Positions 6,753 through 30,260 of a DNA stretch of 36,164 bases are shown one piece after another. Source of the DNA: Paraspadella gotoi (Eukaryota > Animalia > Chaetognatha); contig JBJCIZ010001037.1 of the NCBI GenBank assembly GCA_051294375.1, positions 1-36,164 on the forward strand, given 5' to 3'. The number at the start of each line of letters is the position of its first letter. Positions within the stretch are counted from its first letter, which is position 1. The notes below the pieces were generated by a model. That model searched no databases. It saw only the letters and a program-made list of their open reading frames with translations, and was not told the DNA's origin. The position numbers were made by a program, and so were the translations under genes.

Positions 6753-7083
6753 CCAAGATTAGAGGCAATCACCCTATCACCAGGCTTTCTTTCCGCCGGC
6801 TCCCTCTTCCCCCTCTCAACTCCCCCCTCCTCCTCCTCCTCTCGTCCCTTCCTCCTCCCATCCCCTAGCGAGTGGACCGGGCTCTCCTCTCTCTCTGGAC
6901 GGCACTCACGGCGCCAAGGGCTACCAAGACCCGCGCGAATCCCTCTTTCGCTCTCTTCCTTTTTCCTTTGTAGTGTATTTGCTGTGGCCTATACCCCTTT
7001 TTATTATTACAATCTTACTTACCTCTTTTTACTTGGTTGAGAGGGTAGTCAGATCCTCTTTCTAGCCAGTTATTCTATCTTCA
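6753..7083 (+). repeat. 5' LTR of element 1
   Basis: CCAAGATTAGAGGC...GGACGGCACTCACGGCGCCAAGGGCTACCAAGACC...GCCAGTTATTCTATCTTCA is colinear with 27239-27564 and ends in CA. It could be 5'-truncated. Confidence 0.9.
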
Positions 7084-7086
7084 GAG

Positions 7087-7104
7087 TGCTCGCCAATCAG
7101 GCTC
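7087..7104 (+). promoter_or_regulatory. Possible degenerate primer-binding site
   Basis: TGCTCGCCAATCAGGCTC starts 3 nt after the LTR-terminal CA, the same spacing as the PBS of element 2. It lacks one G of the canonical TGG, in a noisy region. The tRNA was not identified. Confidence 0.35.
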
Positions 7105-7389
7105 TCCCCTAGGTTTAAACCTACCCCAGGATTAAGAGTCCCGTGCTTCCGACTTAAGTTAACCGGGCACGTTAAACCCACCCCAACCCACCCGAAACAT
7201 CAAATTTCTTCGTTTCTTTTCTAAGCTAACCTCATCTTAATGTTTTGTCTCTACCCTAAACTTTTTCTTACCTCGTCGCGCAAAAAAAAGATTTTTTTTT
7301 TTTCAACTCTAACCTAAATTTTCTAATTTTTTTTCTATCTCTCCTCGCGCAAACACACACACAACAAAAAAAACGATTTGTCAAAAACG

Positions 7390-7830
7390 AAAATTGCTAA
7401 AGTGTTAGAGTAAAATCTCATAATTTTTTCTTTTCAGGCACTTAATCCGCGGAAATTTAATAAACAGTCCGTAGAAAAATTGTAAAAGTGTAAAACTGCT
7501 AAAAGAGTATCTCATCATCTTTTCTTAGCACTAACGCGGAATTGTAAAAGTGGTAATAAATTTAAAGTGTAAAATTATAAAGTTTTAATCTCATCCTTTT
7601 TGTCAGCACTAATCCGGAAGTGTAAAAATTGCTAAAAAAATTGTAAAAGTGTTAAAATTATAAAGTATTAATCTCATCCTTTTTTCGCTACTAATCGGAA
7701 GTTGTTAAAAGTTGTATAAAAAACTTTTGGTTAAAGTGTAAAATTATAAGTATTTAATCTTAATCCCTTTTTTTCAGCAGCTAATCCGGGAAATTGTTAA
7801 AGAGTAAAGTGTTTCTCATGCGCATTTCCG
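7390..7830. repeat. Degenerate ~80-90-bp tandem repeat, ~5 copies, in the 5' leader
   Basis: ATCTCATCCTTTT...AGCACTAATCCGGAA..TGTAAAA recurs at about 7415, 7510, 7588, 7671 and 7757. Confidence 0.8.
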
Positions 7831-9319
7831 CGAAACGTGTAAAGAGTCAAGAGCGTAGTCTTAAGAGGACATGAAAATAAAAATAAAAATACGAAGTGAT
7901 AAGTAACAAAAAGTAACAAAGTAAACAAGTCAAATTTCAAAACTCGACTTTCCGAAAACTTTGTTCGGACGTCTATTATCTTATCACTCTCTCGCGTTTA
8001 TTCAACTTTTCACTTTGTTTCACTATCCCCTCGATTTGCGTCCTGCACTCTATCTCCTAATCTCATTAAGCCCAAATCTATTTTCACTCTAGTTTAAAGC
8101 TCATGTTTACATATTTACTATTCTATTTTAATAACTAACTAATACTTACCTTTCTCCTCAAATATTGATCCTAATCATCTATATTCTTTTTTTTTTTTAT
8201 TCTTTATTTGATTATTTAGTATTAATCTCGATTATTAAATTTTATTTAGTTTATTAAATTTATTTCGATTTTATTCTCTGTCCTTGACTTCCCTTTCTTT
8301 CAAAGATTCCATTTGGAATTACTCTCCACCTAATTTTCGACTTTATCTCTGATCTCTATTTCTCTATTTTATTCCTCCCTTCTTTTTCTACTCTCGTTTT
8401 TTCTAATCTCTCGGGTTTCGGTCTCCTTTTTATTATCTATCTTCTATCTTTTTTTCCTTCTTCGGGTATCGGGTTTCCTCTGTATTCTATCTTCCCTTTT
8501 TTTATTTCATCTCTATACTATCCTTTGATACTTCACTATTTTCGACTTAATCAGCTATTTCACCATTTTCGACATTTGAGAATCCACTATTTCGACTTAA
8601 TCCCGCTCTAACTCAGTTTTGGTTGATCCATTGTACTACTTCGCTGTGCCCTCTCCAATTTAACTCAATCTCAGCACAACCTAAACTCTCTTCTACTCTA
8701 TTTCTATTTCGATCTCCAAACTTTACTTCTATCTCTGTTTCTATTTAAATCTTCATCTCAATCTTAACTCTTCCATTCTATTCCTATTTCTCTCCGAGTT
8801 TATTTTTTAAAAAATATAATATATATATAATTTCAAGAACACGACTTAAATCTTAATTCTCCCCTTGGTTCACTCTCTACATCTTTGCTCTCTTTCTCGC
8901 TTTCATCTTTCTACATCTCTCTCTCCTTGACTTACCCTCTCCTCACCCCCTTTGTCAAGCTGAAATCCCCCTCACTCCCTCTCCCTTACTGACGGACTCT
9001 GCATTCCTCTCATCCCGCCTTTCACTTCTTCACTCCTTCATTTCTCTCCCCCCATAACCTTTACCGATATGACCCAGAGGGTACATTTCCATTTTCTCAC
9101 GTTCCCCCTCTTCATTCTTTGCCCGCATTGACCTGAGAGTCAGTCTTCGATCACACTATCTTACTACTCTTTCTCTTCCCCCTCTCATCTGTTCATGCTC
9201 TTCCCTCTCCTCATCCTCTCTACTCCTAAGAGCACAAGCTGCAAAGAGAGGAACCGTCGACCTCTGACCGAAAAACGCTCTACGCTGCCTCCTCGTGGTC
9301 CAAGCTTACTTTCCCTCTC

Positions 9320-9415
9320 CTCATTCTCTCTCTCTCTCTTCTGTCTTACCTCTCTCTCTTACTCTCCCTCTCTCTCTCTCTCTTAACTCTCTCTCCTCTC
9401 TTACTTCCCCTCTCC

Positions 9416-9465
<50 letters not shown>

Positions 9466-9570
9466 CTCTCTCTCCTCTCTCTCTCTCCTCTCTCTCTCCT
9501 CTCGCCCTCCCTCCACTCCTCGCTCCCTTTTCCTCTTCTTTCCCTCTTCTCCTCCCCCCCCTCTCGCGGC
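9320..9570. repeat. (CT)n microsatellite / polypyrimidine tract
   Basis: Directly visible CT runs. Confidence 0.95.
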
Positions 9571-9788
9571 CGATATAACCCCTAACGACTCTCGGTCCTC
9601 TCCCCCTCCCGCTCTTTTGTTACCCCCCTTCCAGTTTTATTACCCCTCCGCACAGCCAAAACCGATTCCTTGATTTATCCGAGCAGCTGACAAAGTTAGC
9701 CTAAAGAGTGACAGAAAAGTAATGACAATAACGGAGCAAAAGTAACTGGGTGAAGAAAAGGATTGAGAAAAAAATTTCAGCGACCGTG

Positions 9789-10017
9789 TAAAAAATAATT
9801 AAATTGTGGCTTCTTCCTTCCAAAAAAATATATATAACAAACAAACAAAACAAAACTTAAATTGAGATCTATTCCTTTTCCGTCTTGATCTTCTCTTATT
9901 CTAAAAAAATAATTAAATTGTGGCTTCTTCCTTCCAAAAAAAAATATATATAACAAACAAACAAAACGAAACTTAAATTGAGGTCTATTCCTTTTCCTTC
10001 TTGATCTTCTCTTATTC
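9789..10017. repeat. Near-perfect tandem duplication of ~113-116 bp
   Basis: TAAAAAATAATTAAATTGTGGCTTCTTCC...TTGATCTTCTCTTATTC occurs at 9789-9901 and 9902-10017. Confidence 0.92.
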
Positions 10018-10103
10018 TACGAATTTTTCTTTCGATCTCGCGAAACTTTCTTGCTCGTCTTCTCTCTCTCTTTCTCTTTTTTTTCTCATTTTCCTTGCCC
10101 GTT

Positions 10104-10373
10104 ATGTTTCTAGTAGACGATGAAATAAACGAAGATTGTTTGCGCCGCGCATTTTTCCCGCGTTTTACCGATCCGTCTTGCACGTTACAACATTGGTTGT
10201 TGCACTATAGCCGCTGTTCGTATTGCCGTGCCTGTACTTTCTGCACAATCTGCTCACTGGACGAAACCCACCCCACCCGTTTCTGCCCGACCCTTACCGA
10301 AACATTAGAGAAATTTAAAAATCTCAGAGTTGAATCCCCTACACCGTCGGAAGAATCTGAAACCTCGAGGTGA
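10104..10373 (+). CDS. 89-aa Cys/His-rich upstream ORF with a zinc knuckle (possible first exon of gag)
   Basis: ATG at 10104, TGA at 10371-10373. Contains HYSRCSYCRACTFCTICSLDETHPTRFCP; the last part has the C-X2-C-X5-H-X4-C spacing of the Gag knuckles. Confidence 0.6.
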   Translation: MFLVDDEINEDCLRRAFFPRFTDPSCTLQHWLLHYSRCSYCRACTFCTICSLDETHPTRFCPTLTETLEKFKNLRVESPTPSEESETSR

Positions 10374-10614
10374 ATCCATTTACAACAGAAACTTTAAATT
10401 TTCAAAAAAAAGAAAATTTGAATTTTCGAAACGACGACGCGTTTTCTTCCTTTTTATTTTTCGTCCTTTTTTTCGCCGCCGAACGATTCGTCGACGACGA
10501 ATCATCATCCTCCTCCTCTGAATCCTCCTCTCGTGAATTCCTCCTCCTCCTGAAACTCGTTCTCGTTCTCGCTTCTCTCACTTCAATTGGACTACCCCCC
10601 CCCATCTTCGACTC

Positions 10615-10654
10615 TTCTGTCTCTCTCTCTCCCCCTTATATTTTTTTTCATCTA

Positions 10655-10691
<37 letters not shown>

Positions 10692-10702
10692 TATCTTTCT
10701 CT

Positions 10703-10757
<55 letters not shown>

Positions 10758-10945
10758 CCTTATCTTTCTTCCCCTTTTCTCTCCTCTATTCTTTTCTCTC
10801 CTCGCTTTTACTCTCTCTATCGAATTTTTTTTTCTTTTTCTCTCCTCTATCCCTTTCTCTCTCTTCTCTCTCTCTCTTTCCTCTCCCTCTCTCCCTTATC
10901 TTTCTTCCCCTTTCTCTCCTTTATTCTTTTCTCTCCTCGCTTTTA
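10615..10945. repeat. (CT)n-rich tract
   Basis: Directly visible CT runs, followed by (CTTAY)n-like repeats to ~11210. Confidence 0.93.
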
Positions 10946-11314
10946 AACTACTTTAAACTTTAAGTACCCTTTCCCTTTTATTTCCCCTTCACCCACTTTA
11001 GCTTTAGCTCACTCTATCTTACTTATCTTATCTTATCTTATTTTACCTCCTTCCATTTTACTCCACTCTAATTTTTTCCGCTTTATTCTATCTTACCCTG
11101 CCTCACCTTACCTTACTTTACTTATCTTACCTTATCCTACCTTATTTCCACTCTACGTCACTTTAGTTTATTTCACCTTCACCTTAATTAAACTTACCTT
11201 ATCCACTTCCCCTTAAAATTACTTCTCTTTATTTCTCCCTGCCTTACTCACCCTTCTTTCTGAAGAACTAAATCCGACCTAATTTCCAACGTAAATACAT
11301 CAAAGGAAATCACG

Positions 11315-13534
11315 ATGGCAGGCAAGAGCGCTTCCTTGGAGGATCTAATGCAACATGAGGATGGTGCTGGTAGACTCTCTGCTAGGTCACGATCAAGAGA
11401 CTCTCTACAAAGCAGAACTGTGTCACTAAGGTCAAGATCCAGGGAAAGGAGTAGTGATAGAAAGAGATTTGAAGGACCCCAATTCATGGAACACAGAGAA
11501 GTGGTAAAGAGGTTTGAAACTGATGAATCAGATGACGAGGGGAACAAAAGCGATACCCCAGATGTTGAAGAACAATTTAGGGGAACACAAGACCAATTCA
11601 CAGTGTTCACACAGAGAATAGGTGATCTTGAAGATGAAAACAACACCCTTAAATCAGAAAACGACACCCTTCTGTCAGAAAAAGCCCAAACTCGCATAAA
11701 TATGGACACCCTTACATCGGAAAGAGACCAGACTGAACGCAAACTCCAGCATGCTGAAAGCGAGATTATAGGATACAGAGAGAAAAACACCGACCTCATA
11801 AGGGAAATCGCCCAGCTAAGAAATGCCCTGGAGGGACTAAAAACAAAAGAAACAACAAGGATAGCCTCTGAGGCTATGAAAGAGCTCAATCTAATTGACG
11901 ATGACCTTGATGAAAATTCTCAAAGGAGAACTTCACTACCCACTTCACAACACCCAGCAGCCCTCATCCCTCCTAAACTCCAAGAAGCTGCAAAACCCAA
12001 ACAAACAAAAAGGACAATCTCCAGCAGAGACGAACATCCAGCCAGTGCCCCAACATCCCCAAAAAGGCCAGAAAGTGCGACAGCATCACCACAAAGAAAG
12101 CGTACTGTTGAGGACCTTGACGAGGATCTACTGCTCCTCCGCCAGGAACTTTACAAACAAAGTGAAGCAAGAGAAAAGGAGAGAGAGGCCCGAGAAAGAG
12201 CAATGGAGCTACTGGAAATTGAAAGGAAGAAAAAGAGGGAGTATAAAGAAAGACTTCACAACCTCTCAGACATGATGAGTGGAATGACAGTAAGAAATAG
12301 AAGCAGTAGCCGCAGTGAAAGTGTAGCATCATCCAAGAATCGGTCAACAACAGGAAGCCACAAAGCGCTAATCTGCGATGAGGAGAACATTGAATCTGGG
12401 ATCTCAACACCGAGAGAAAATGGAGAAAATTCGAAAGTGAAAGGTAAACATTTCCCCAAACGCGATAAGTACACAGCCTTCAGCGAGTATTTTGCGGCTC
12501 TCAAAGAGAGTATAAGAAATTGCATTGGACAGGGTCACACCATGTCGCAGATTGCATGGGAGCTATACCTCCATGCACAGGACAGTAGCTATGGTGGTGA
12601 GTTCCTGCACCAGCTAAACCGATTAGGCCTAAGTGATAAAAAGAAAACAGTAGACGGAATACTTAAAGCCATAAAGATGTCAGATTTTGATCATCGATTT
12701 CTGAGCGCATGGGAGCGTTTTGCTCAGCTTAGTAAAACTGGATCTGAAGATGTAGCCGCCTGGATGAGACGCCTGGAGACAGCCTACGATGCGTGTGCCC
12801 ATGTCTTTGATGATGCCGAAGAGTTCAGATCCAGACGATCCCACGAAATTAAGAAACAATTCTTCAAAGGCGGGGATTTCCCAGAATGGATGGCAGCACA
12901 ACTTCGTCCTTTCCATGACCTTACTGAGCTAGTACTGAACTGCAGAACGCTTGTGACCAAAGAAAGGAACAATAAGCAAAGACAAACAACAAACAACACT
13001 GCTGCGCAGCAACCACAACAACAGCGACCTTTTCGATCCCGCAATCAGCAACAACGACCGCAACATTTCCAACCGCAGCAACATTTGCAACCGCAGCAAC
13101 AATTCCAACCGCAGCAACCGCAGCAGCCACTCCTGCCCCACACCCCACAACAATTCCAACCACAGCCCACCCAGCATCTGCAACCCCAAAGGCCAATCCA
13201 ACCACAACCACTCTTGCGGCAGCAACAACAACCACAGCATCAAGCACTTGCTGCAACAGTGGATCCATTTGTCCGGCCTGATGGATCAGTTTCATTTAGA
13301 CCAAAGAGAGCAGATCGAATCCCTGCACCACTCAATGCAGGAAGGATGCCACTTGATGGGGAACATGACCCAAACTTCAAAGGAAGAATGTGCCTACACT
13401 GCCGACAAATAAACAAACACCTATCAGGACACTGTGGATACCAAAATTTCTGCCTGCACTGCAATTTAGAAAATGAACACACCACTCCTCATTGTCCACT
13501 GAATCCACAACAACAACAACAAAACCAGATATGA
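11315..13534 (+). CDS. gag: Gag polyprotein, 739 aa
   Basis: N-terminal coiled coils; capsid-like motif FAQLSKTGSEDVAAWMRRLETAY; Q/P-rich tract; two knuckles CLHCRQINKHLSGHC and CLHCNLENEHTTPHC; lies directly upstream of pol. Confidence 0.92.
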   Translation: MAGKSASLEDLMQHEDGAGRLSARSRSRDSLQSRTVSLRSRSRERSSDRKRFEGPQFMEHREVVKRFETDESDDEGNKSDTPDVEEQFRGTQDQFTVFTQRIGDLEDENNTLKSENDTLLSEKAQTRINMDTLTSERDQTERKLQHAESEIIGYREKNTDLIREIAQLRNALEGLKTKETTRIASEAMKELNLIDDDLDENSQRRTSLPTSQHPAALIPPKLQEAAKPKQTKRTISSRDEHPASAPTSPKRPESATASPQRKRTVEDLDEDLLLLRQELYKQSEAREKEREARERAMELLEIERKKKREYKERLHNLSDMMSGMTVRNRSSSRSESVASSKNRSTTGSHKALICDEENIESGISTPRENGENSKVKGKHFPKRDKYTAFSEYFAALKESIRNCIGQGHTMSQIAWELYLHAQDSSYGGEFLHQLNRLGLSDKKKTVDGILKAIKMSDFDHRFLSAWERFAQLSKTGSEDVAAWMRRLETAYDACAHVFDDAEEFRSRRSHEIKKQFFKGGDFPEWMAAQLRPFHDLTELVLNCRTLVTKERNNKQRQTTNNTAAQQPQQQRPFRSRNQQQRPQHFQPQQHLQPQQQFQPQQPQQPLLPHTPQQFQPQPTQHLQPQRPIQPQPLLRQQQQPQHQALAATVDPFVRPDGSVSFRPKRADRIPAPLNAGRMPLDGEHDPNFKGRMCLHCRQINKHLSGHCGYQNFCLHCNLENEHTTPHCPLNPQQQQQNQI

Positions 13535-16500
13535 CAGGATACGACGCTCCCGGGCGAGGAACTACTGGAAACTCTCTGCATCTCCCTCACCTATGACCTG
13601 CCCCAATTGTTTCAAAATGGACCCACAGTGAAAAGCCTAATACTCTCCCATTTCAACAACCACCCCCACACTAACCCTGAACAGCAATACAAAAATGCAC
13701 TACTTGACCTCCCCGGTGGCGTCCTAATGGAATGTCTGGCCTCTGCCTTGGATGCCAGAATTGAGATTCTCCAAGAGAATCGCCTTGTATATAAATCTAA
13801 ATATGATGGAACTGATGAACTAACACTGGTATATAATAATGACCCACAATCACTCCTTTTCTCCCACATCAACTTTTCAACCCCACAAACCTTCCTTGAC
13901 AAACTAGCCACACCCCAGCCTATTGTACCTTTGATGCCTTTGCAATCTGCCCCTGTTCAGCCAATGATGACTCACACCTCTTTAGGTGCTACTGTAATAC
14001 CTTCCTCAACCTCTCCACACTCTCTGTCACCACATAGTGAATCTGACATCTCTAAACACACCAAAAAATCTGATATTGAAAATCTTCACCGCCTTGAAAA
14101 CCATGAAAACCATGTAAATTCAACGCTTCTCTCCCAAATCTCCCCATCAAATCTTACAACTGAAAATTTGCCAAAATGCTTTCGCCAATTGAATAATCTG
14201 AGACAAGAGACAAGAGACCTCCTTTTTCAAGCCATGGGACAGGGACCCACAACTGCTAAGGTGAAATCTATCCTTGATGATATCAAGGCAAAACAACAAA
14301 ATAAGAAAAGTACAACTCTTGAATGCATTCCTGAAAATGCAGCTGAGAGCCACCAGAGTGCACATGAACAATCCCTGGAGAATGAGACGGTGCCTAAATC
14401 AAACCCAACCACGACCAGGATCACAGATCAAGCTGCGCTTGTAGCATCAATAAACCATGACAAAGATGGCCGTTTTGGAGACAGGCTTCAAGACTACAAA
14501 ATCAAGGATCTTGTGGCCTTTTGGTTGCCTTCGTCCTACAATGAAGGAAACACAGTAAAACTGCAACAAATTCTTGATACAAAACAACAGAAATTTGGCC
14601 AACCCATGTATCTAGTTGGAATCTTTCCTAACAAAAGGGTGAGACCCATGACCATAGATACCGGGGCAACAACATCCATGATTAGCGAAACCATGGCCAA
14701 AGAACTGAACCTAACCTTCTTGAAACGTGACCCATGCAACATCCATACAGCAAATGGCCCAATAATCTCTGACAGAGTGGCAACATCGCTAGTAGACCTC
14801 ATCGTGGTTAAGGTCCGGATGGAATTCTTGGTCATTGACAATCCTAGCTATCCACATTCCTTCCTACTTGTGGGATCTTCCTTCCTCCGCTCCAACAACT
14901 TTATGCTAGACCAGGATTTCCTGACCCTCTCGGAATCAATCAAAATACCCTTAATGGCCGGCCTAAACAATGCCCAAAAACACATTGATATGATCCAGAG
15001 AGATTACATCTCGGTAGCTGGAGAGGGCCTTCGAATGTCAGGAAATAGATCAATCCCACCAAAGAAAAATATCACTATCAGCGTCCGTCTGGATGAAGCA
15101 AGTAGCAAAAAACATGCTGGGCTCTGCATCCACTTTGAGAATGGCATAAGGAACATGATTGGAGTCCACGCACTGGACATGCTAATCTCCAAAGATCACG
15201 ATTATCTACGAAACCCAGTTAATTTGGTTGTCCAAAATCGCACAGACAAAGAAGTGGTGATAAAGGATGGCACTTACCTAGGAACCTTAAGAACTGTTGT
15301 GGATGAACAGCTGAAAACAGAACTCCAACACTGCGCATCAGCACAAGTGTCAGCCCTGGTCACCAAATCAAAACATGGCAGAATTGCCGAAGCATGGAAC
15401 AATCTCGCCCATGAATCACAAAAGCACACTTGCTTCATTGGGCGATCAACGGATGACAAGGACCTGGAAGAAGGCGAAATACTTGATGATCTGGAGGATG
15501 GTGAAATTGAGGACTCCCAAGAAGAACATATTCCTGATGACGACATGGATTTAGGCGTAGAGGTCCCAATATGGCTGTCTGACAGACTGGATGAGATTGA
15601 CAGGGAAGATAGAGCAAACAAACCAATCGCTTCCAAAGAGACATCAATAATTGAGCGAAATGACAAGCCAAAACATGAAATTGATGCTGCAATCACAAAG
15701 GTTCAGCGTGACATGGAAAAATACTGGGACCAAAAAGGAAAAGAAAGCCTGCTAGAGAAAGTGGTCATTGGAAAAAGGCTGACGGATGAGCAAAGGCGCC
15801 GCTGTGAGGACCTAACTTGGGAGTATAGATGCATATTTGCTACTAACTTCCAACACGCTGAAGCAGGCATACGTGACTATGCAGTGGACATGGCTTATGA
15901 TCCTGATAAGGTTGTTGCAGCAAATCCACGACCCACTGGTGTCTTTCAAAAACAACTGCTCTCCCGCTATATTGATATACTACTGAGAGCAAATATCCTT
16001 GAGCCATCAAAATACTCTTCTGTCGCCAATGCCTTCGTGATTGAGAAAAAGAGCTGCAAGATTAGATCAATTGAGCAGTTATCTAATGCTTCAGATGAAG
16101 AAATCTCAGCAAACTTCCGCCTTGTAGCAGATCAATCACACCTGGGAAAAGCCATGAAACCTTTCTCAAGCTTCCTCATCACCATGCGAGAGATGATGAC
16201 CTTTATGGAGGCAAATGCCTTCTATGTTACAGCTGATTTCTCAAACTTCTTCTACCAGATCCCATTGTCAACCACATGCAGAGCCATAACCTCCATCTAT
16301 GGTGGGGATAACAAGTCTTATAACTTTCAGAGAGTGACTATGGGGTCCCGGCCTGCCTTTTCAACGGCATCTCGAGTTGTGGAACTAACCTTCAGAGACT
16401 GTTTCTCCGTAAATGAATACTTAAGTTATGCAGATAATTTTTCCTTGAAAGCATCAAGCGTGGATGAGAGCTTGGATCAATATCAAACCTTTTTGGCTCG

Positions 16501-19500: not shown

Positions 19501-19597
19501 AACAAAGAAAAATGGTGACCAGTACCTAGTTCAACCAACGGATGGATCAAAACAAAGAGTTGTCCACAGAAGAACAATGAAGAAAATTAAACAGTAA
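13535..19597 (+). CDS. pol: Pol polyprotein (aspartic protease, RT, RNase H, integrase), in frame with gag
   Basis: Frame open from 13535. Protease TIDTGATTS (~14657). RT FRLVAD, ADFSNFFYQIPL, YADN (16427), FLGF. RNase H LFTDAS, RKELLG, VTDS, LADLLTR. Integrase H-X4-H...CENC, HADLL, ETDLG, LAEKVN, with a GPY/F-like C-terminal module (YEVGEKILV...VVHRRTMK). Confidence 0.97.
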   Translation, partial: QDTTLPGEELLETLCISLTYDLPQLFQNGPTVKSLILSHFNNHPHTNPEQQYKNALLDLPGGVLMECLASALDARIEILQENRLVYKSKYDGTDELTLVYNNDPQSLLFSHINFSTPQTFLDKLATPQPIVPLMPLQSAPVQPMMTHTSLGATVIPSSTSPHSLSPHSESDISKHTKKSDIENLHRLENHENHVNSTLLSQISPSNLTTENLPKCFRQLNNLRQETRDLLFQAMGQGPTTAKVKSILDDIKAKQQNKKSTTLECIPENAAESHQSAHEQSLENETVPKSNPTTTRITDQAALVASINHDKDGRFGDRLQDYKIKDLVAFWLPSSYNEGNTVKLQQILDTKQQKFGQPMYLVGIFPNKRVRPMTIDTGATTSMISETMAKELNLTFLKRDPCNIHTANGPIISDRVATSLVDLIVVKVRMEFLVIDNPSYPHSFLLVGSSFLRSNNFMLDQDFLTLSESIKIPLMAGLNNAQKHIDMIQRDYISVAGEGLRMSGNRSIPPKKNITISVRLDEASSKKHAGLCIHFENGIRNMIGVHALDMLISKDHDYLRNPVNLVVQNRTDKEVVIKDGTYLGTLRTVVDEQLKTELQHCASAQVSALVTKSKHGRIAEAWNNLAHESQKHTCFIGRSTDDKDLEEGEILDDLEDGEIEDSQEEHIPDDDMDLGVEVPIWLSDRLDEIDREDRANKPIASKETSIIERNDKPKHEIDAAITKVQRDMEKYWDQKGKESLLEKVVIGKRLTDEQRRRCEDLTWEYRCIFATNFQHAEAGIRDYAVDMAYDPDKVVAANPRPTGVFQKQLLSRYIDILLRANILEPSKYSSVANAFVIEKKSCKIRSIEQLSNASDEEISANFRLVADQSHLGKAMKPFSSFLITMREMMTFMEANAFYVTADFSNFFYQIPLSTTCRAITSIYGGDNKSYNFQRVTMGSRPAFSTASRVVELTFRDCFSVNEYLSYADNFSLKASSVDESLDQYQTFLARCKHQNLLLKPGELFVAMKVDDNNGAFQFLGFEFREGKIFPGKKKLADFSSRPLPTSRKKVLQLAQSLNFFRTFSPRFANEQKQLYDELERQRLSTSKFKLTPKMIQHLRELLHLVMDSNGLHLLVKDDIHKSVFLLFTDASELSYGAALFTLREGKLLCLYSVSKSFPRPQMKYHINRKELLGLYNAMQQMSLFLRFRKFFVVTDSASVHSWARTQISSLPTSVRTPLLYMRETFCFRTILCKSGDQLADLLTRYVKPETSYEQVEDTLFKLHQGPKPDHHLDVTTLNETCAAEIQGHNQAFMENTTSDHIEDVITDSARSSDQTCYAAPHGLEEFDLQESSEELTTLEQSDSDTDSDKEITAFVAPATKPKKHGQGQKRPPSDSEDETKARRYPRRCIKPPEQHTKLEDSDADDESQTKQHPRRCTLPKKQVVKVAEKPKDATIVAEVCNREGQSSKTKVDNPLEIQVSRVDGKSFQINLDSNGKAYLLAPIEISKSHQAEPEIETPGRLLGTQNQEGVATGPEDTTPKWSDATLISVDTNHTHKEPQDIGCTCRVKPNPSRRIAPDSLEIIQEGNPTDFEPTESILEDAIAAAGAETNPCPKAEDITSEIERAQQLCSDTQAMVEVIRMNELPEQHVARTRSPYLNHLMEIRPNLKITGTSLFFCKLNDDGSITNTVVVPPTKAQELVMKIHLDLAHVNPSRLRCSISQKYYIHKLHEACTRCFKTCENCRLAQKAKLSKGRKVQIFDSAVANTFHADLLQLEEIHSYKYLLVLVDLCSRYVIADALKAKTAESVAESIKNICFTYQLCINRIETDLGKEFRNSLIDSLKTQLGFSCVSLRPSQKNSNLAEKVNATIVDLFRRLQPTGEPWTRTWKMVIRAINIAPIKYSDDLTVSPFKLFYGREPTLPNLPDVTTTPPHGTDNDYQFEKLIRQDGLLQRVCQLRCLETPPSLILLGTDDYEVGEKILVWRNFVEKEKTTKVKSLEFKLMPKYETALVTKKNGDQYLVQPTDGSKQRVVHRRTMKKIKQ

Positions 19598-21009
19598 AAC
19601 ACCTCTTAAACCGCGACCACGCCCTGTCTCTACCCCCCCCCTCACAATTCCCGTGGTGCAGTGGATCCCCGTGATCTCCAAATCGCTGAAAACACGTCCC
19701 GCCATCTGGAAACGCTGGACTGAAGCTAAGCGGCGTGGATCTGCCCTACGGATGGACCCCACTCTCTTCCTACCCATTATCCCAACTGTGCGGTGGCTTT
19801 CCAGGCCCTGGACCCTGGTGTGGCCAAACCAGAACCAGTGGCGCCGCCGCGCCTCGGCTAGCCAAACCCTACCCTTTTCTCCTTTTTCTCCAGTGAAAAT
19901 GAAATGTAATAAAAATACATCAACTAAAGGTGCTTTGTCCGCCTCTTCAACTAAAGGTGCTTTATCCACACTATTACGTCATACACGCTCCAGGACCCTA
20001 AAAATTGGGCCAACATTTTATGCTCTTATTTTTTTTCTCGTTCTTTTAATCCTTATCTCTTTCCACTCCCCAAATTAGTATTGACTCAATGCGCGGGCCG
20101 CGGTATATCAAAGTATATTCTCTCTAGACATTTGATTATCCTTCTATCAATTGCTGTCGTGTTCTTTGGACAACTGTTAACCATCCTGTAAAAACTAGTT
20201 CTGGTCAAAACATTCCGATTTTAAGTAATAAATTCTTTATCCAGAAAACAGAAAAAAAATACAACAAAATCGACCACTGCTTTAATTTTTATTATCCTTT
20301 CTCTCCTTTCATCCTTTTCCCTCTCCACCTACATATTTTACCTTTGCCTTAACTTTTCTCCGTTTCTTTTATTCTATTTTTGTTCACCTTCCCTTTTTTT
20401 TTCTCTATCCTACTCTCCTTCCCTTTTTTTCCCTTCTTTACCTTTTTTTCCTTTTCTTTATTTTATTTTCTTCTTTACCTTTTCTTTTCCTTTATTTTCC
20501 TTTCTTTACCTTTTCCTCCTCCTTTCTTTTTTCCATCCTACTTTCCAGTTTTTAAACCTAATTTATTTTCACCACCCAACTCTGTACTGCTTATCGAAAT
20601 ATTCTTTACTAAAATATTATTCACAGGAAGCAGACTCGACTCATCGCCGAACTCATGTTTACCTCGCCGTCTTTACTCTCAGTCCAATTATAAGTGAAAA
20701 CCGAAATCTTTTTTTTCTCTTTTCTTTCATCTATCGAACTCACCTATTCTGTTTCAACTCTCAACTTTGTCACTCGTACTCCTTAATAAGTAATTTGATA
20801 GCCCTCGATTCTCCATCTGCTCAAAACAAATCACATCTATTACTATGACTCAAAATTCAAAACTTTCTTTTATTCACTTTGCAATACAAAAATTAATAAC
20901 ACAATATGATACTCTTTACAAACTACATAATAATTTTTTTTTCTCGTTGATATGATGCTCCTTATGCACTACTTATTCATTTTCGTTGTCACTGTCCAAA
21001 CTGTCCAAT

Positions 21010-21367
21010 TCAAATTCCCCTCGAAACCAATCTGGGACGCGGTGTGAACAGAGGAGAAGATATTGATGTTGAAGTAGCCTTGGGCAGAGCGATGTCTTGT
21101 ACAGACGATGACGTAGCCTTGGGCAAGGGGATTTCCTGTACAGATCGTCCAGTGTATGTCACGAAAGACTTTCCCAATTCTAACTCAGATGGGCTGGTCT
21201 GAGAATTATCTTCGATTTCAGTGGACGAGGTGTCCAGCTCTCCATAAACACCCAGCAGAGGCATGCCCCATCCCTGATCTTCATGACTGTGATGGAACTC
21301 TTGCGGAACCACAAGCTGCTGCATCCTTGGGAAGACCTCCGTGTTATTGTGAGGCCAGCGCATCCGC
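21010..21367 (-). CDS. Antisense spliced gene, exon 3 (terminal), unknown protein
   Basis: Acceptor TTTATTCAG immediately 5' on the minus strand; phase 2 joins exon 2 in frame; ends with TGA at 21012-21010; minus-strand AATAAA at 20874-20869. Confidence 0.65.
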
Positions 21368-21780
21368 CTGAATAAATATAAAATTAAAAATTAAAGCACT
21401 AAAATAAATAAAACTAAATTAAAACGACTAAAAATTAAAAATCATTAAAGTTAAAATAAATAACTTACTAGAACGTATATCCTTCTTTCACTAAAATCTA
21501 CACCTCACCCAACTGATTATTCACCTTTTCTCTCTCCCTCCTTTCCTCTATCTTTCTTTCTCCCTCTCTCCTCCTTTCTCCCTCTCTTTCGCTATCTCTA
21601 TCTCTTTCTCTCGATTCCTCTTTACCTCTCCCATCCCCCCTTTTTTTCTCCCCCTCTCTCCCTTCCTATTCTCCCTTCCTATTTCTCTCCCCTATCTCTT
21701 CCTCTCCATCTCTCTATCTTCCTCTCTCCCTCCCTCTATGACCCCCCCTCCATCCTCCCTCCCCCTACCCTCTTACTTAC

Positions 21781-22026
21781 ACTGGAAAAGCGGTAGCTAC
21801 GTAGGGCCTGTCCCTCCTCCCTAATGTGTTCCGGCGCACATGAGCGCCAAGATAAATCCGTGAAACACCATCGTCAGGCACCCGAACGAGGCCCTGGCCT
21901 TCAAGGACAACTGGGCTGCCAGGAACCCCATGCTGATGATGGTAGACAATGCCTGCAGAGCCTTGGCCATTTTCAACGGCAGTTTCGGGCCCAGTGAATC
22001 GAGCCCCAGGAACAGCCTCGTTCAAT
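21781..22026 (-). CDS. Antisense spliced gene, exon 2
   Basis: Acceptor CTTTTACAG and donor GTAAGT at 21780. The only open frame is the one required by the phase-2 end of exon 1. GC-richer island between CT tracts. Confidence 0.72.
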
Positions 22027-22109
22027 CTGTAAAAGTTTCAATTGACTCAAATTAAATTAATGAGATCTTATTCTCTACCCCCCCCCACCCCGTCAATTTC
22101 TGTTCTCGT

Positions 22110-22800
22110 TCTCTCTCCATTTCACCTTTCCCCTACTCCTCCCTCTCCCTTCCTCTCTCTCTCTATCTATCTTTTTCTCTATCTCTCCCTCTCTTTTTCT
22201 CTCCTCTCTTTCTCTCTATCTCTCCCTCTCTTTTTCTCTCTCTCCTTTCCTCTCTCCTTCACGCTCTCTCTCGGTATTGACTCTTTCCTTCTTTCACTCC
22301 TCTTCTTTCTCTCTCTCTCTCTCTCCTCTCTCTCTCCCTCCCTCTTACTCTCTCTCCTTTTCTCTCTCCTTCACACTTTCTCTCGGTCCTTAACTCTTTC
22401 ACTCCTCTCCCCTCTCTCTTTCTTTCTTTCTCTCCCTCTCTTTCTCTCTCTCTCCTTTCCTCTCTCCTTCACGCTTTCTCTCGGTATTGACTCTTTGTCT
22501 CCTTCACTCTCTCTCTCTTCCCCTTAACTTTTTCTTTCTTCCGCTCCTCCTCCCTCTCTCTCTCTCTCTTCTTCTCTCTCTTTCCCTTTAACTCTTTCTT
22601 TCTTCCGCTCCTCTTCTACTCTCTCTCCTTCTCTCTCTCTATCTCTCCCTCCCTCTTACTCTCTCTCCTTTTTCTCTCTCCTTCACGCATTCTCTCGGTC
22701 CTTAACTCTTTCTCTCTTTCATTCCTCTTCCCTCTACCTCTCTCTCCTTCTCTCTCTCTCTCTGTATCTCTACCTCTCTCTCTCCCTCTCCTTCTTTCGA
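22110..22800. repeat. (CT)n-rich tract with internal duplications (antisense intron 1)
   Basis: CT runs; CTCTCGGTATTGACTCTTT and CTCTCGGTCCTTAACTCTTT each occur twice. Confidence 0.9.
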
Positions 22801-22892
22801 CCCTTAACCTTTAACCCTTAATGCTCGAGTAAAACAACAACAAAAATTTAACTAAAAGCAAACAAAAACGAAAATTACGAAACAAAACTTAC

Positions 22893-23326
22893 ATTTCAAT
22901 CTGGGTCTCCAGCCATGACATCACTGGGAACCAAGCGGCGCCCTTCCTTGATGCCTCACGCATCAGGGTCCCTCGTTGGAGACACCAGGTATAGAGTGGG
23001 ATGCGTGGAAGGCCCATGTCCACGTAACCCTCATCGATTTCCATCATGACGAGGGCCCCGTTAAGTTCCATGTTGTTGGTTGTCCCACCGGCACCGAAGC
23101 GCCGCAAGAGGTACTGCTGAACTCCAGGCAGTGAGACCCCAACATTGGGAAACTCCTTCTTGTCGAATATCTGGCCGGTGTTTCCCCGGGTAGCAGAGAG
23201 TAACGAGTTGGATAGCCTTCGTTTGTTATCCCTGGTCAGTGACATCCTTTTTCCTTTTTTCTCTGCACAAGGGCGCCACGAGGATCCGTTTCCAGAGCAC
23301 CTTTTCCTTTTGTTCGGATTTTCCAT
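22893..23326 (-). CDS. Antisense spliced gene, exon 1
   Basis: CAAAATGG start context at 23326; NLS-like PNKRKR; frame open to the donor AT|GTAAGT at 22892. Confidence 0.72.
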
Positions 23327-23929
23327 TTTGAAGATTATCTCCCTTCACTTTTCAATTGGCATTAAAACATTTCTCCTTCTTCTTCCCCTTTATTTCTCTT
23401 GCAAAAAAAAAAAAGGTTTTTTTTTGTTGCTTTTTGTTGCCTTTTTTTTGTTTTCTTCTTTTTAAAGTTGAAAAATTTGAAGGATGAGAATTGAAGGTTG
23501 TCTCTTTCAGGTTGACGTGGGTAATCCGTTCAGTTCTTAAATAGAAATTGTTGTTCTCCTTTGAAATTTTTTTTCTTTTCGCCGTTTACCTTTTTATTCA
23601 TCTTTTTATTTTTTTTTTTTCTCTCATTTTGTTCTTCCTTGTTCTTTTATCTTTCGGTTGATTTCCAAATGGGCACGATGAAAAGACGAAAACATCCACA
23701 AAAAAAAAAACAAATGAAAATAAAATAGGTGAAACCATACCGAGATGAGCGGCAAAACTAAGAGGATAAAAGCCCTCCCCCTCCTCATCATCACCTTACC
23801 CGTGAGACGATCACATGACCTGCGCAAAAACAAAAGGGGACATCGCGATCGCATAAAATCTCGACCATGATAGCGATGGCTATCAACACATAAAGTTAGA
23901 CAGTCTCAGTTAGCCAAATTTTTTTTTCA

Positions 23930-24262
23930 CCCTCCCCTACTCTTTTCCTCTCTCTCCCTCTCTCTCCCTCTCTCTCTTTCTCCATCTCCCTCTCTCTTTC
24001 TCCGTCTCTTTCTTTCCATCTCTTCCTTCTCCCTTTCACTCTCTCCTCTCTTTCTCTCTCTTTCCCCACTTAAATATATTTTTTTTCCTCTTTCTCTTTC
24101 TTTCTTGAATCTCAACCTCCCCTCTTTCTCCCTCTCTCTTCCCCACTTCACCTTTTCTCTCTCTCTCACTCTCTCTCCATCTCCCGTTCTATCCCTCGCT
24201 CTCCCCCACTTAATATCCCCTTTTTTATTCTTTCATTCTCTCTCTTCCTCTTTCTCTCCCCC
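23930..24262. repeat. (CT)n-rich tract
   Basis: Directly visible CT runs. Confidence 0.9.
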
Positions 24263-24782
24263 CGGTTGAAAAGACAAAAGAAAATGCGTAAAGAAATAAT
24301 AATAATAAAATCTATAATTAAACAAAACGGGAAATATTATAAAATCAATGGAATGCATAAAAACTGCCCCTTACTCTTACTGTACAAAGTAGAAGTGTTT
24401 TCTTTCTTTTACAACGATTTTTATTGGTTATTACAAACAGTTTCGACTCGAAAATTTGAGTCCTTTTCAGCGCAAAAGAGCTCCTTACTCTTAATTTGAC
24501 CTTTTTATTGATTTATATGATTTTTTTTCTCTCTCTTTTTCATCTAAATTTTTTTTTTTTCCTTCTTTTTTTCTTTGAAATTTGACTTCTATTTTTAGAC
24601 ATTGCATATTTCTTGTTGCCTTGCCACGTATGCCTTTTTCTCCCAAATACCCCATCCAAGAGACAGACTCATTGACTTGACTGACACCCCCCCTCCCCCC
24701 CCTCAGCCCCCGACTCCAGGTTCAGTCAATCCAAAGGAACCAAAAGAGATTCGAGATTTGAGCCAAAGTGAATAAACCCAAG

Positions 24783-25841
24783 ATGAACCTGCTCCTGATC
24801 CTCACCGCTGCAGTCGTCGCCGCCGCTCTTCCCCCGTCTGTGGGACAAAAACTTTATGGATTTGACTGCTATGATCCGAGGACGAAAATCCTCCTCTCTG
24901 TCCCTTTCAAACAACTGAAACTGAATTACGGAACAAAATTCACGGCGACTGCGTTTAATGAACAATTCAGAGCCGCATGGAATGCAGATTGGATATATTT
25001 CCATCTGCACCATGAAGGATTTGTGGTACTATCGGAAGTGGACCCCGGCGCGCCACGCGGCCTTGTCGCCGCCATGATGGATGGAAAAGCACACCTGCTT
25101 CAATGCCACTACACCGAAGTCCACCCTGTGGAAAATGATGATGAATGCTTCGCTGACAAACTCGTGGAACTCCCGTCCGGCGCCAGGCGTTTCTTCGACA
25201 ATACTTCTGCCATCCTCGTCACCCACGGCAGAAAAGTGGAGTGCGGCCAGAAGACTCCCAAGGATCATGATGACTCCACCATTTCCAAAATTGCTGATGC
25301 CCTTGACGACGCCATGCTCTCACGAATGGCGATGTCCATCCTAGCAAGAGGTATCTTCAAGGGAGAGTTCGACGAGGACGTCACCAAGTTATTCAACCCC
25401 GATTCCATCCTGAAGCTCATTGAACTTGAGGAATTCGAATCAGACCACATCCTCAGCTCAATAGCCACCAAGATCAGGATGCTTTGGCCTAAGATAACTG
25501 TGGCTTACGTCACAGTCTACACCATCATCGCCATTGTCATTGTGTCGCTCGCCTTCTCCCGGGGAATCTCCCCTCTGAAGTGCTTTGCCTTAGTATTCTC
25601 GGTCTGCAAAATCTTAGTAGACTACGACAAATATCTTAAAGAGACGCAACTGCAAGAAAAGGCAGCACTTTATGAGGAGATTCCCAAGGAACCGCGCCAA
25701 GTACCTGAAGAGATAGTGGGCAACATCCTTGACTGCCTAAACAATATCCTCAATCGCATCGAAGACATTGAGGAAAGGCTTGAGCTCATGGATAATCGAC
25801 CGCCACCAGGGCGACGTGGGGTGAGGTCAACGCAACTCTAA
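24783..25841 (+). CDS. env: Env-like type I membrane protein, 352 aa, with chuvirus/gB (class III) glycoprotein-like motifs
   Basis: Signal peptide MNLLLILTAAVVAAA; YGFDC; GKAHLLQCHYTEV...ECFADKLVELPSGARRFFDNTSAILVTHGRKVEC; transmembrane segment ITVAYVTVYTIIAIVIVSLAF; C-terminal heptads; located between pol and the 3' LTR. Confidence 0.85.
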   Translation: MNLLLILTAAVVAAALPPSVGQKLYGFDCYDPRTKILLSVPFKQLKLNYGTKFTATAFNEQFRAAWNADWIYFHLHHEGFVVLSEVDPGAPRGLVAAMMDGKAHLLQCHYTEVHPVENDDECFADKLVELPSGARRFFDNTSAILVTHGRKVECGQKTPKDHDDSTISKIADALDDAMLSRMAMSILARGIFKGEFDEDVTKLFNPDSILKLIELEEFESDHILSSIATKIRMLWPKITVAYVTVYTIIAIVIVSLAFSRGISPLKCFALVFSVCKILVDYDKYLKETQLQEKAALYEEIPKEPRQVPEEIVGNILDCLNNILNRIEDIEERLELMDNRPPPGRRGVRSTQL

Positions 25842-27227
25842 TCTACACAACGTACGACCTCGTCCTCTACTATCTCGCTCTCGCCCCCCCCCCCCGGCTC
25901 AGAGACTAGTCTCCAAAAACCAGGAGCTCGACCGCCAAGCCCAGAGCGACGACTTACACCCCACGCCCCCCCTCATCCTTTTCCTGCGCTCTCTTATCTC
26001 TTATCCTTCTCTCCTCTCTTCTCTCTCTCTCTCTTCTCTCTCTCTTTATCTCTCTCTCCGGTTCTCTCTCCTCCCACAAAATGCTCGAAATCTTCGCGGA
26101 CTCTCCAGCACGAATGTCCAGCTTCAGTGGCGACATTCCCACGTCAACCGTCGTCAACGTCAACGTCGCGCACCTTCTATAGGAGACCAACGACAATCGT
26201 CTCCTCCTTCTCTCTTGCTCTCTGTTTTGTCCCTTACCACCCCCTTTTCTCCCCTTGTGTTAACGTGCATGACACCTTTTTTTTTGGCCAAGAATATGTT
26301 ATATTTTTTTTTAGTTACAATTACAGATCAAACGGAGGTGTGTTATTGCTTTGGTTTTTTTTTCCGTTTCTATTTTACATGGTACTACTTCTCGAAAAGT
26401 AAAAATTTTTAATTTTTATTTTAGATTTTTCTTTAAATTTTTTTTGTTGAAACATAGCATTGCTGAGTAATCTATATTGCATTGTGCGTTTCATCATTCG
26501 TATGTGTTTTATTTTAGTCAGTATGAATTCTCAGGTCCTTTTTCCGTTAAATTCGAATTTTAAAATGTAATTTTAAATGTGAAAATTGAAAATTAGTTTT
26601 ACAGTATGATTTATTGCTAGTTTTCTTGCCATCTCTTCACGTCAAATTTCTAATTCTGAAACCTTCTAAAATATTTTTTTAATTTTCATTGAAACGTTTC
26701 TAGTTTCATATTTAGTTTCATATTTAGTTTCATATTTAGTGTGTTTTAATTGTTAGTTTTGCTTTATTTCATCTTTTCCCTTTAAGTATCCTTTTTTTTA
26801 TAAAACAACTCCCTTTTTATTTTTTTTAAATTGATATTGATTTTGAATTCCTTTTGCAAAAAAATAACGAAAAACAAAACAAAAAAAAATATAAATTTTG
26901 ACTACTAAAAGTAGCGTGTCTTTCCCACCCCCTTGAGCAATTGTACCCTCCATCCCCTCCCAAAAGCCAACCTTGCTGACAAGACAAGGCGACTTCCGTT
27001 CCGCCCTCTCCAACCAGCGCCTCGTCCAAACAACCAATGAGGGTATCGACTCATGAGGAGCCTAAGACGACATTCCCCCCCACCCCCAAACATCGCGTCC
27101 ACCCCACAATCCACCTGACCCGGCTGGCGTCCGCCTCTGCCCCTGACTCTTCACAGCTCCACGCCCACACCAAGATGATGGCGACGCCCACTTGTGACAT
27201 TCAAGACCCAAGTGGGCGTCTCCGACC

Positions 27228-27237
27228 AAGAGAGGGG
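27228..27237 (+). promoter_or_regulatory. Polypurine tract candidate
   Basis: AAGAGAGGGG ends 1-2 nt before the start of LTR-LTR similarity. Confidence 0.55.
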
Positions 27238-27238
27238 C

Positions 27239-27564
27239 ACAAGATAGAGGCTCATCCTATCACCAGGGCCTTCTCTCTCCCGCCGGGCTTCCTCTTCCCC
27301 TCTCAACGTCCCCCTCCTCCTCCTCCTCTCGTCGCCTCCTCCTCCTCATCCCTGGGAGTGCATCGGGCTCCCTCTCTCTTGGACGGCACTCACGGCGCAA
27401 GGGCTACCAAGACCGCGCGATCTCCTTCTCCTCTCTCTCCTTTTCCTTTGTAGTATTTTGCTGTGGCCTTAACCCCTTTTTATTATTACATAATTTACCT
27501 TATTTACCTCTTTTACTTGTGAGAGGGTAGTCAGATCCTATTCTAGCCAGTTATTCTATCTTCA
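27239..27564 (+). repeat. 3' LTR of element 1
   Basis: Colinear with 6753-7083; subterminal inverted repeat AAGATAGA/TCTATCTT; ends in CA. Confidence 0.9.
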
Positions 27565-27566
27565 GA

Positions 27567-30235: not shown

Positions 30236-30238
30236 AAG

Positions 30239-30260
30239 TGGTGTCACCGACGGAATTCGA
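30239..30260 (+). promoter_or_regulatory. Primer-binding site of element 2
   Basis: TGGTGTCACCGACGGAATTCGA; its reverse complement has tRNA 3'-end geometry: TCGAAT + TCCGT + CGGTGAC + A + CCA. Confidence 0.85.

What the first reader, a model, noticed from the sequence alone, without database searches (positions are those of the whole stretch)
6753..27564. A ~21-kb retrovirus-like gypsy element with complex-retrovirus-style organisation
Seen: one LTR pair encloses a 4.2-kb leader with a zinc-finger ORF, an uninterrupted gag/pol of ~2760 codons split by one stop, and a 7.6-kb 3' region holding a spliced antisense gene head-to-head with an env-like gene. Known: most animal Ty3/gypsy elements are much shorter, and giant ones (plant Ogre, planarian Burro) are exceptions. 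Inference: this combination may define an undescribed lineage of large enveloped or post-enveloped retroelements.
Basis: partly seen in the sequence, partly recalled or inferred. Interest (0 to 1): 0.9.

Follow-up and report, generated by a model that had tools for sequence, protein, structure and literature searches.

The report
Giant retrotransposon with stripped-down envelope
A 21-kb retrovirus-like jumping gene, unlike any in the databases searched, carries intact capsid and enzyme genes, a predicted spliced gene on its opposite strand, and a conserved shortened envelope-like gene predicted to lack the parts that fuse membranes, so it likely uses that protein for something other than classical virus entry.

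Summary
Direct repeats of about 330 bp (6754-7086, 27240-27567) enclose 20.15 kb: a leader with a Gag-type zinc-knuckle ORF, gag (739 codons), one TGA, pol (2020 codons), a predicted three-exon antisense gene and a 352-aa envelope-like gene. Contigs of three DNA runs (two studies) cover gag to antisense exon 3, and single contigs join integrase to the 3' region. Sample differences in gag-pol are mostly silent (16 silent, 10 replacing, 1 stop; pN/pS about 0.18). Pol is Ty3/gypsy-type but at most 23% identical to any hit. The RT has YADN in place of YxDD, matched in an independent contig. The envelope-like protein belongs to a family of 13 clusters (median 20% identity) that keeps only the glycoprotein-B 'crown' (domain IV), a membrane anchor and a helical tail, with no room for the fusion-loop domains. 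[quoted passage not shown]

The parts
6754..7086 (+). 5' LTR-like repeat (333 bp), abutting a satellite array
   Evidence: self-BLAST; ends: 7-bp inverted terminal motif, no TG...CA, no TSD
7087..11314 (+). 4.2-kb leader, 67% pyrimidine, with short internal tandem repeats and CT tracts; no clear PBS
10104..10373 (+). Leader ORF, 89 aa, with a CX2CX5HX4C knuckle like Gag's; a donor at 10370 and an acceptor at 11265 would join it in frame to gag (inferred)
   Evidence: E 0.002 against Gag; 1 of 2000 shuffles scored as high; phases 2/2
11315..13534 (+). gag, 739 codons: coiled-coil N-part, Q/P-rich stretch, two CX2CX5HX4C knuckles, ends in TGA
   Evidence: no capsid Pfam hit
13532..13537 (+). Single in-frame TGA followed by CAG between gag and pol; likely readthrough site
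   Evidence: X1 contig 12350-15207 matches with 0 differences; no stimulatory hairpin
13535..19597 (+). pol, 2020 aa: 370-aa unknown N-part, protease (aa 370-452), RT, RNase H (1122-1203), ~420-aa spacer, integrase (H2C2, D-D35-E)
16427..16438 (+). RT motif C reading YADN instead of YxDD
   Evidence: X1 contig 16174-17346 has 4 differences, all listed elsewhere
19581..20078 (+). 165-codon ORF overlapping the end of pol in another frame, hydrophobic C-terminus; 19697-19853 is partly matched by contigs of a sister family; coding status unproven
21010..21367 (-). Predicted antisense gene, exon 3
   Evidence: both listed sample differences are silent third-position changes
21781..22026 (-). Predicted antisense gene, exon 2
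   Evidence: covered by X3 and X5 contigs
22893..23326 (-). Predicted antisense gene, exon 1 (basic NLS-like N-terminus)
   Evidence: no family or fold found
23327..24782 (.). 1456-bp spacer between the two divergent genes; likely bidirectional internal promoter (inferred)
   Evidence: sequence; precedent for an internal env promoter in Tor3b/4b (PMC4402516)
24783..25841 (+). Env-like gene, 352 aa: signal peptide, 4-Cys gB domain-IV-like unit (aa ~22-160), helices, transmembrane segment (~236-263), helical tail
27228..27237 (+). 10-nt polypurine tract, 2 nt before the 3' repeat
27240..27567 (+). 3' LTR-like repeat (328 bp)

Best explanation
This is one 20.8-kb Ty3/gypsy-type LTR retroelement of a very divergent family that likely copies itself through a full-length RNA, likely makes Pol by reading through the single TGA after gag, and is predicted to express a spliced antisense gene and a shortened, membrane-anchored glycoprotein-B derivative that would be unable to fuse membranes in the classical way. 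Shown: the layout, open frames, catalytic residues of protease, RNase H and integrase, the TGA and YADN in independent contigs, excess of silent changes, and the conserved short env family. Inferred: (1) transcription from the 5' repeat; (2) readthrough; (3) a bidirectional promoter in the 1.46-kb spacer driving both 3' genes; (4) the introns of the antisense gene persist because the sense genomic RNA that is reverse-transcribed does not read them as introns; (5) the YADN RT still works in this family. For the crown-only protein I favour attachment or membrane targeting of particles through its crown and long helical tail (about 45%) over interference with full-length gB-type envelopes (about 25%) or another role (about 30%).
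For: Pfam order PR-RT-RH-IN and Ty3 RT as best PDB hit, E 8e-15. X5 contigs 11691-18736 and 18711-21725 and X1 contig 17317-20195 (0 differences) join pol to the 3' region. 8 of 9 listed runs, 2 studies, hold 71-85% of the words of 16000-25900. Of 27 shown gag-pol differences, 16 are silent, 10 replacing, 1 a stop; pN/pS 0.18, binomial p 1.6e-5. 0 of the 10 shown indels in 19598-22100 fall in predicted coding parts (p 0.003 with the post-pol ORF, 0.06 with the two exons alone). The leader knuckle is a Gag paralogue. Leader, introns and spacers share one pyrimidine bias (62-84%) absent from the flanks (46-49%). Env family: 13 clusters at E<=1e-3; the 14 rows of A1 that span all four cysteine columns, the query included, keep all four cysteines with Cys1-Cys2 spacing 65-95 aa; 8 of 13 hit PF24664 only at profile positions ~364-441 of 653; 16 BFVD hits at E<=1e-3, all glycoproteins where named, mostly of chu-like and related negative-strand RNA viruses; model residues ~22-160 align to gB domain IV, Z 4.0-4.9, rmsd ~4-6 A, ~106-115 residues.
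Against: No TSD, no TG...CA, no clear PBS, and LTRs only 86% alike. In Ty1 the equivalent D-to-N change keeps polymerase activity in vitro but abolishes transposition (PMC2148107, abstract). The main X1 contig has a stop in pol at 17276-17278 and the main X3 contig a 4-nt insertion in gag at 12124. Contig depth falls by a third to a half past ~17300 in X1 and X3, so some copies may lack integrase and the 3' part (depth is a weak measure). No readthrough hairpin (z +1.9). The env model is moderate (pLDDT 65, pTM 0.39) and PDB matches are weak (best Foldseek E 0.03; Z under 5). No env homologue was found next to a pol gene; the one locus fetched is 1.8 kb.
Confidence: 0.6

Rival explanations
1. 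A real element, but RT-crippled: the YADN family is copied in trans by a related family with a normal RT, and its Gag, protease, RNase H and integrase stay under selection only as helpers.
For: Ty1 D211N loses transposition. Contigs of a sister family match parts of RT/RNase H and 19697-19853, some at higher depth than the element itself. Broken copies exist in X1 and X3.
Against: Differences inside RT-RNase H (15800-17270) are 5 silent to 2 replacing; the other RT aspartates are kept; the same abstract reports RNase H suppressors that partly restore Ty1 D211N.
Confidence: 0.2
2. The distal 3' part (antisense exon 1, spacer, env-like gene, 3' repeat) is joined to this pol by mis-assembly, by recombination between two loci or by a nested insertion.
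Against: The antisense gene runs in phase from exon 1 into exons 2-3, which are covered by contigs continuous with or beside those that reach pol; no inner LTR pair or long inverted ends; env sits in the usual place and strand before the PPT; same base bias throughout. A join of two loci through the repeat would explain the missing TSD without changing the internal layout.
Confidence: 0.12
3. An immobile, domesticated or fixed locus whose frames are kept by selection on the host.
For: Found in all 8 DNA runs listed; low silent divergence (~0.3% between samples); introns and an altered RT motif are common in co-opted genes (own knowledge).
Against: Whole gag-pol with all enzyme modules is kept; frame-breaking variants dominate contigs in two samples; a length variant at 11228 occurs at 41-49% of depth in all three DNA runs, as expected for several copies.
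Confidence: 0.08

Closest known systems
HSV/gB-type env-carrying Ty3/gypsy elements ('errantiviruses'), Chary and Hayashi 2026, PMC13524379 (read: abstract, sections 5, 6 and 9 part 1, section 14, word searches in text and supplements)
   Same: LTR-gag-pol-env order, gB/chuvirus-glycoprotein-related env with signal peptide and C-terminal anchor
   Different: Their env has domains I-V with fusion loops; this one has domain IV only. Their screen capped regions at 10 kb, allowed 1 kb (manually 3-5 kb) between pol and env and removed env with large truncations, so a 5.2-kb gap and a 352-aa env would likely be missed. 'Antisense' and 'readthrough' do not occur in the main text; the 2 of 3 YADN supplement places that were shown lie in env sequences.
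Tor3b/Tor4b elements of Oikopleura dioica, Henriet et al. 2015, PMC4402516 (read: parts 1-3 of 6)
   Same: [quoted passage not shown]
   Different: Tor3b/4b Env has seven cysteines, a fusion tripeptide and furin products of 60-65 kDa; the appendicularian rows shown in PMC13524379 are F-type. This protein is ~39 kDa, has four ectodomain cysteines and no R-X-K/R-R site. No sequence comparison with Tor pol was possible.
Burro/GYPSM1 giant gypsy elements of planarians, Arkhipova and Yushenova 2019, PMC6431247 (read: passages)
   Same: Internal region over 20 kb, animal-type gypsy, env homology, accessory ORF upstream of gag in one relative
   Different: Burro is one ~4900-5100-aa polyprotein with env in frame between gag and pol and 25 kb internal; here the size comes from leader, spacers and introns, the LTRs are short and env is a separate 3' gene.
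Plant Retand/Grande/RIRE2 and Ogre elements (PMC11963269 abstract; PMC7264820 abstract and first third; PMC6431247 passages)
   Same: Long pol-to-3'LTR region (2.9-6.6 kb in Retand) with antisense ORFs of unknown, perhaps regulatory, function
   Different: Plant lineages with TRP28-type antisense ORFs; no Pfam family was hit here; no gB-type gene; Ogre's size comes from 1.9-6.5-kb LTRs.
MDG1-group elements with sORF2 (PMC11952523, abstract) and rotifer LTR elements with small transmembrane ORF3s (PMC5408684, abstract)
   Same: Retrotransposons carrying small membrane proteins in place of a full fusogen
   Different: No gB-derived crown domain is described in those abstracts; no homology was tested.

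Membership tests
Ty3/gypsy LTR retrotransposons (Metaviridae) | pol order protease-RT-RNase H-integrase | tested here: met
   Pfam positions 370-452, 877-1020, 1122-1203, 1670-1828
Ty3/gypsy LTR retrotransposons (Metaviridae) | RT/RNase H closest to Ty3/gypsy rather than BEL/Pao or retroviruses in a phylogeny | tested here: inconclusive
   Similarity only: Ty3 RT E 8e-15, caulimovirus-type polyprotein E 8e-12; PF17917 E 5e-10 versus Pao PF05380 E 3e-4. No reference set for a tree was available.
Ty3/gypsy LTR retrotransposons (Metaviridae) | Two direct LTRs with PPT before the 3' LTR | tested here: met
Ty3/gypsy LTR retrotransposons (Metaviridae) | TG...CA termini, tRNA primer-binding site, target-site duplication | tested here: inconclusive
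   None seen, but the ends lie in noisy sequence, no host tRNA set was available and no second insertion was seen
Ty3/gypsy LTR retrotransposons (Metaviridae) | RT catalytic YxDD motif | tested here: not met
   Reads YADN in the window and in the X1 contig; this bears on activity, not on ancestry
Ty3/gypsy LTR retrotransposons (Metaviridae) | Gag with capsid fold and zinc knuckle | tested here: inconclusive
   Two knuckles with unusual CX2CX5HX4C spacing; no capsid Pfam hit; Gag was not folded
HSV/gB-type errantiviruses (Chary and Hayashi) | env homologous to class III gB/chuvirus glycoprotein, with signal peptide and anchor | tested here: met
HSV/gB-type errantiviruses (Chary and Hayashi) | Complete ectodomain with domains I-V and fusion loops | tested here: not met
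   Ectodomain ~215 aa; residues ~22-160 cover gB domain IV, whose chain range (107-635 in HSV gB) skips domains I-II; same short spacing in relatives
HSV/gB-type errantiviruses (Chary and Hayashi) | Trimer formation and membrane fusion | not tested
   No complex prediction was obtained; fusion needs the bench
Tor elements (Oikopleura) | pol clusters with Tor1-4; Env with seven conserved cysteines | tested here: inconclusive
   Env pattern differs; no Tor pol sequence was available for comparison
Burro giant elements | Single giant ORF with env in frame between gag and pol | tested here: not met
   env-like gene lies 5.2 kb after pol as a separate ORF; Burro layout

The most novel reading that the evidence does not exclude
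The element is the type member of an old lineage of giant, complex-retrovirus-like retrotransposons that replicate with a natural YADN reverse transcriptase and have turned a class III fusogen into a conserved crown-only membrane protein with a new job (attachment, particle targeting or blocking of enveloped rivals), regulated together with a spliced antisense gene from one internal promoter.
Probability: 0.35. Interest if true: 0.87.

Novelty: new variant of a known kind. Interest (0 to 1): 0.72.

Why it matters
How retroelements gain and lose envelopes is a live question, and the largest survey kept only complete env genes in elements under about 10 kb. A gB derivative that has lost its fusion domains yet is conserved down to 20% identity across 13 sequence clusters points to a selected, non-fusogenic function and gives a natural minimal domain-IV protein for study. 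A YADN RT in a gene under purifying selection would be a natural test of the Ty1 finding that the last aspartate is dispensable for chemistry but needed for transposition. A 20-kb internal region with short LTRs also bears on the size limit of LTR-element RNA.

Tried and rejected
No whole genome is held for this window, so copies could not be counted or compared. Word-based protein searches: env none at E<=1e-3 among 4021 candidates; RT-RNase H none at E<=1e-8 among 5767. DNA scans for RT-RNase H relatives in viral and JGI contigs and for env in viral contigs: none confirmed; the env alignment was too diverse to scan with. Antisense protein: no Pfam, PHROG or PDB sequence match; single-sequence fold of exon 1 unusable (pLDDT 39); Atlas best score 0.81, within chance; a cupin-like look of exon 2 (my recall of the motif) got no support. 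No RNA holder was listed, and X9 covers only small pieces: no evidence on expression either way. Rfam: no match. No stable hairpin after the TGA or in the post-pol block. No trimer prediction and no wide structural search were obtained (queues full). LTR divergence was rejected as an age estimate because the neighbouring satellite shows the same indel-rich noise. Nested insertion inside the element: no inner repeat pair found. Literature searches that found no description: YADN + reverse transcriptase + gypsy, 0 papers; YADN + reverse transcriptase, 3 unrelated; retrotransposon/env-like/domain IV/class III fusion/truncated, 0; envelope/lacks fusion loops/chuvirus glycoprotein/short env, 9 papers, 8 listed, none on this by title and abstract start. 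The library lacks most subscription papers, Repbase and bioRxiv supplements, and supplement cells over 400 characters are cut, so a prior entry cannot be excluded. Earlier scan notes: nothing by place or sequence.
Full report
Observation. Self-BLAST finds one long repeat pair outside the satellite, 6754-7086 and 27240-27567, 85.9% over 347 columns. It encloses 20,153 bp: a 4228-bp leader, gag from ATG 11315 to TGA 13532-13534, pol in the same frame to 19597 (2760 codons together), and a 7642-bp 3' region. A 10-purine tract lies 2 nt before the 3' repeat and the repeats have a 7-bp inverted terminal motif, but no TG...CA ends, no target-site duplication and no clear primer site; the left flank is satellite and the right flank is unrelated DNA. 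Most LTR differences are 1-nt gaps (21 of 26 gap runs), and the adjacent satellite units show similar noise, so I do not date the insertion from them.

Core genes. Pfam gives protease, RT (below the curated cut-off), RNase H and integrase in Ty3/gypsy order; the best solved relative is Ty3 RT, E 8e-15. Protease, RNase H and integrase (D-D35-E) acidic residues are present, but RT motif C reads YADN. The family is isolated: 2 of 4117 candidates of 1111-3535 aa passed E<=1e-10, at 19% and 23% identity, and none of 5767 shorter candidates passed E<=1e-8. Gag has no capsid Pfam hit but ends in two CX2CX5HX4C knuckles just before the TGA, the place where a programmed stop is expected. In-frame readthrough between gag and pol is known from Moloney murine leukaemia virus (PMC5009743, passages); no stimulatory hairpin was found here, so a spliced or re-initiated pol is not excluded.

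Independent data. Eight DNA runs of one organism, from two studies, hold 71-85% of the sampled words of 16000-25900; no RNA holder was listed. Four runs were laid on 11200-22100. X5 covers 11691-21725 in two overlapping contigs, joining gag, pol, the post-pol region and antisense exon 3. X1 matches the TGA region with 0 differences, the YADN region with 4 differences that all lie elsewhere, and the integrase-to-3' join with 0 differences. One of these runs may be the source sample. Of 40 differences shown (13 more were hidden), 27 lie in gag-pol: 16 silent, 10 replacing, 1 stop; pN/pS is about 0.18 (p 1.6e-5). The main X1 contig has a stop at 17276-17278 and the main X3 contig a 4-nt insertion at 12124, so broken copies coexist. 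Depth falls past ~17300 in X1 and X3, within pol, which may mean truncated copies; it is not evidence of autonomous copies without the accessory genes.

Accessory genes. The leader ORF (89 aa) has the same unusual knuckle as Gag, and the motif occurs only three times in the window; the alignment beats 1999 of 2000 shuffles. It is therefore likely a duplicate of the element's own nucleocapsid module. A donor at 10370 and an acceptor at 11265 would fuse it in frame to Gag (untested, one in three by chance). The antisense gene has three exons with strong GT-AG sites and matching phases, 345 codons, open in 0 of 20,000 shuffles. Both listed differences in exon 3 are silent, and none of the 10 shown indels falls in exons 2-3 (p 0.06 alone). 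Its product has a basic N-terminus and no detectable family or fold. Retained introns fit an antisense gene inside a retroelement, since the sense genomic RNA would not splice them (inference).

The env-like gene. The 352-aa protein has a signal-like N-terminus, four ectodomain cysteines, one transmembrane segment near 236-263, a helical tail and no furin site. An exhaustive HMMER search found 13 clusters; those looked up come from ENA, JGI and Logan assemblies and carry no informative name. The 14 alignment rows that span all four cysteine columns, the query included, keep the four cysteines with 65-95 residues between the first two; median pairwise identity among 11 distinct sequences is 20%. 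Eight of 13 hit the Monjiviricetes fusion-glycoprotein profile, always at positions ~364-441 of 653. The model (pLDDT 65) gives 16 BFVD hits at E<=1e-3, mostly chu-like and related viral glycoproteins of 540-750 aa. Its top PDB hits are the isolated domain IV of pseudorabies gB (weak, E 0.03), and residues ~22-160 align to domain IV of several herpesvirus gBs (Z 4.0-4.9, rmsd ~4-6 A, ~106-115 residues). These Z values are modest, but sequence profile and two structure libraries agree. About 300 residues that hold domains I and II and the fusion loops in full-length proteins have no place in this family. The shortening is old and selected, not a lesion of this copy. Whether the relatives sit in LTR elements is not shown; the one locus fetched has a DnaJ-domain ORF downstream.

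Mechanism. Most likely (0.6) an autonomous or recently autonomous LTR retroelement: full-length RNA from the 5' repeat, Gag plus readthrough Gag-Pol, and a bidirectional internal promoter for the two 3' genes, as env has its own internal promoter in Tor3b/4b (PMC4402516). The crown-only protein would be unable to fuse by the class III route; I favour attachment or particle targeting over interference with complete envelopes. The main rival (0.2) is dependence on a sister family's RT, since Ty1 D211N polymerises in vitro 223-fold slower and loses transposition unless suppressed in RNase H (PMC2148107, abstract). A composite distal end (0.12) and domestication (0.08) are less likely.

Comparison. 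[quoted passage not shown] Burro is larger but has env inside one polyprotein (PMC6431247). Plant Retand elements have long 3' regions with antisense ORFs (PMC11963269, PMC7264820). The element works like an errantivirus-type retrotransposon but fails two defining features (complete gB ectodomain, YxDD). My searches found no description of a domain-IV-only env family or of a YADN gypsy RT, within a library that lacks Repbase and most subscription papers. Earlier scan notes on Burro and on a lectin-like gene in env position gave context only. The host is not identified; an invertebrate animal is my guess from the gene types.

Verdict. Real, apparently undescribed variant of a known kind; interest 0.72.

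Noticed in passing
L001 1426-1704: A DnaJ-domain ORF (PF00226, E 2.4e-8) follows a short env-like homologue on a JGI contig, so relatives may carry other accessory genes.
   Followed up: partly
window ~29870-36164: A second, A-rich gypsy-like element with many frameshifts; protease and RNase H hits, a YVDD-type RT motif and a TGG-starting PBS-like site read by eye; only weak similarity to the main pol (E 0.013).
   Followed up: partly
window 1-6750: Satellite of ~535-bp units, about 12.5 copies, built of ~50-bp subrepeats; units 78-82% alike with many indels, typical of unpolished long-read sequence.
   Followed up: partly
window 19697-19853 and 16883-16938: Contigs of a sister family match here; the block after pol is matched in all four runs laid, including X9, which suggests a conserved coding or cis element downstream of integrase.
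   Followed up: partly
window 10402-10605 (-): 67-codon acidic/basic ORF on the minus strand of the leader; may be a second antisense exon or only low-complexity sequence.
   Followed up: no
window 28579-29373: Short dispersed ~120-150-bp repeats and TAAT runs in the 3' flank, resembling a MITE or Helitron-like remnant (recalled likeness).
   Followed up: no
window ~15020-15320: Beta-strand-like segment between protease and RT resembling the dUTPase-like remnant of other gypsy elements (recalled); no Pfam hit.
   Followed up: partly
window 27037-27453: 138-codon ATG ORF running from before the PPT into the 3' repeat; no family match.
   Followed up: no
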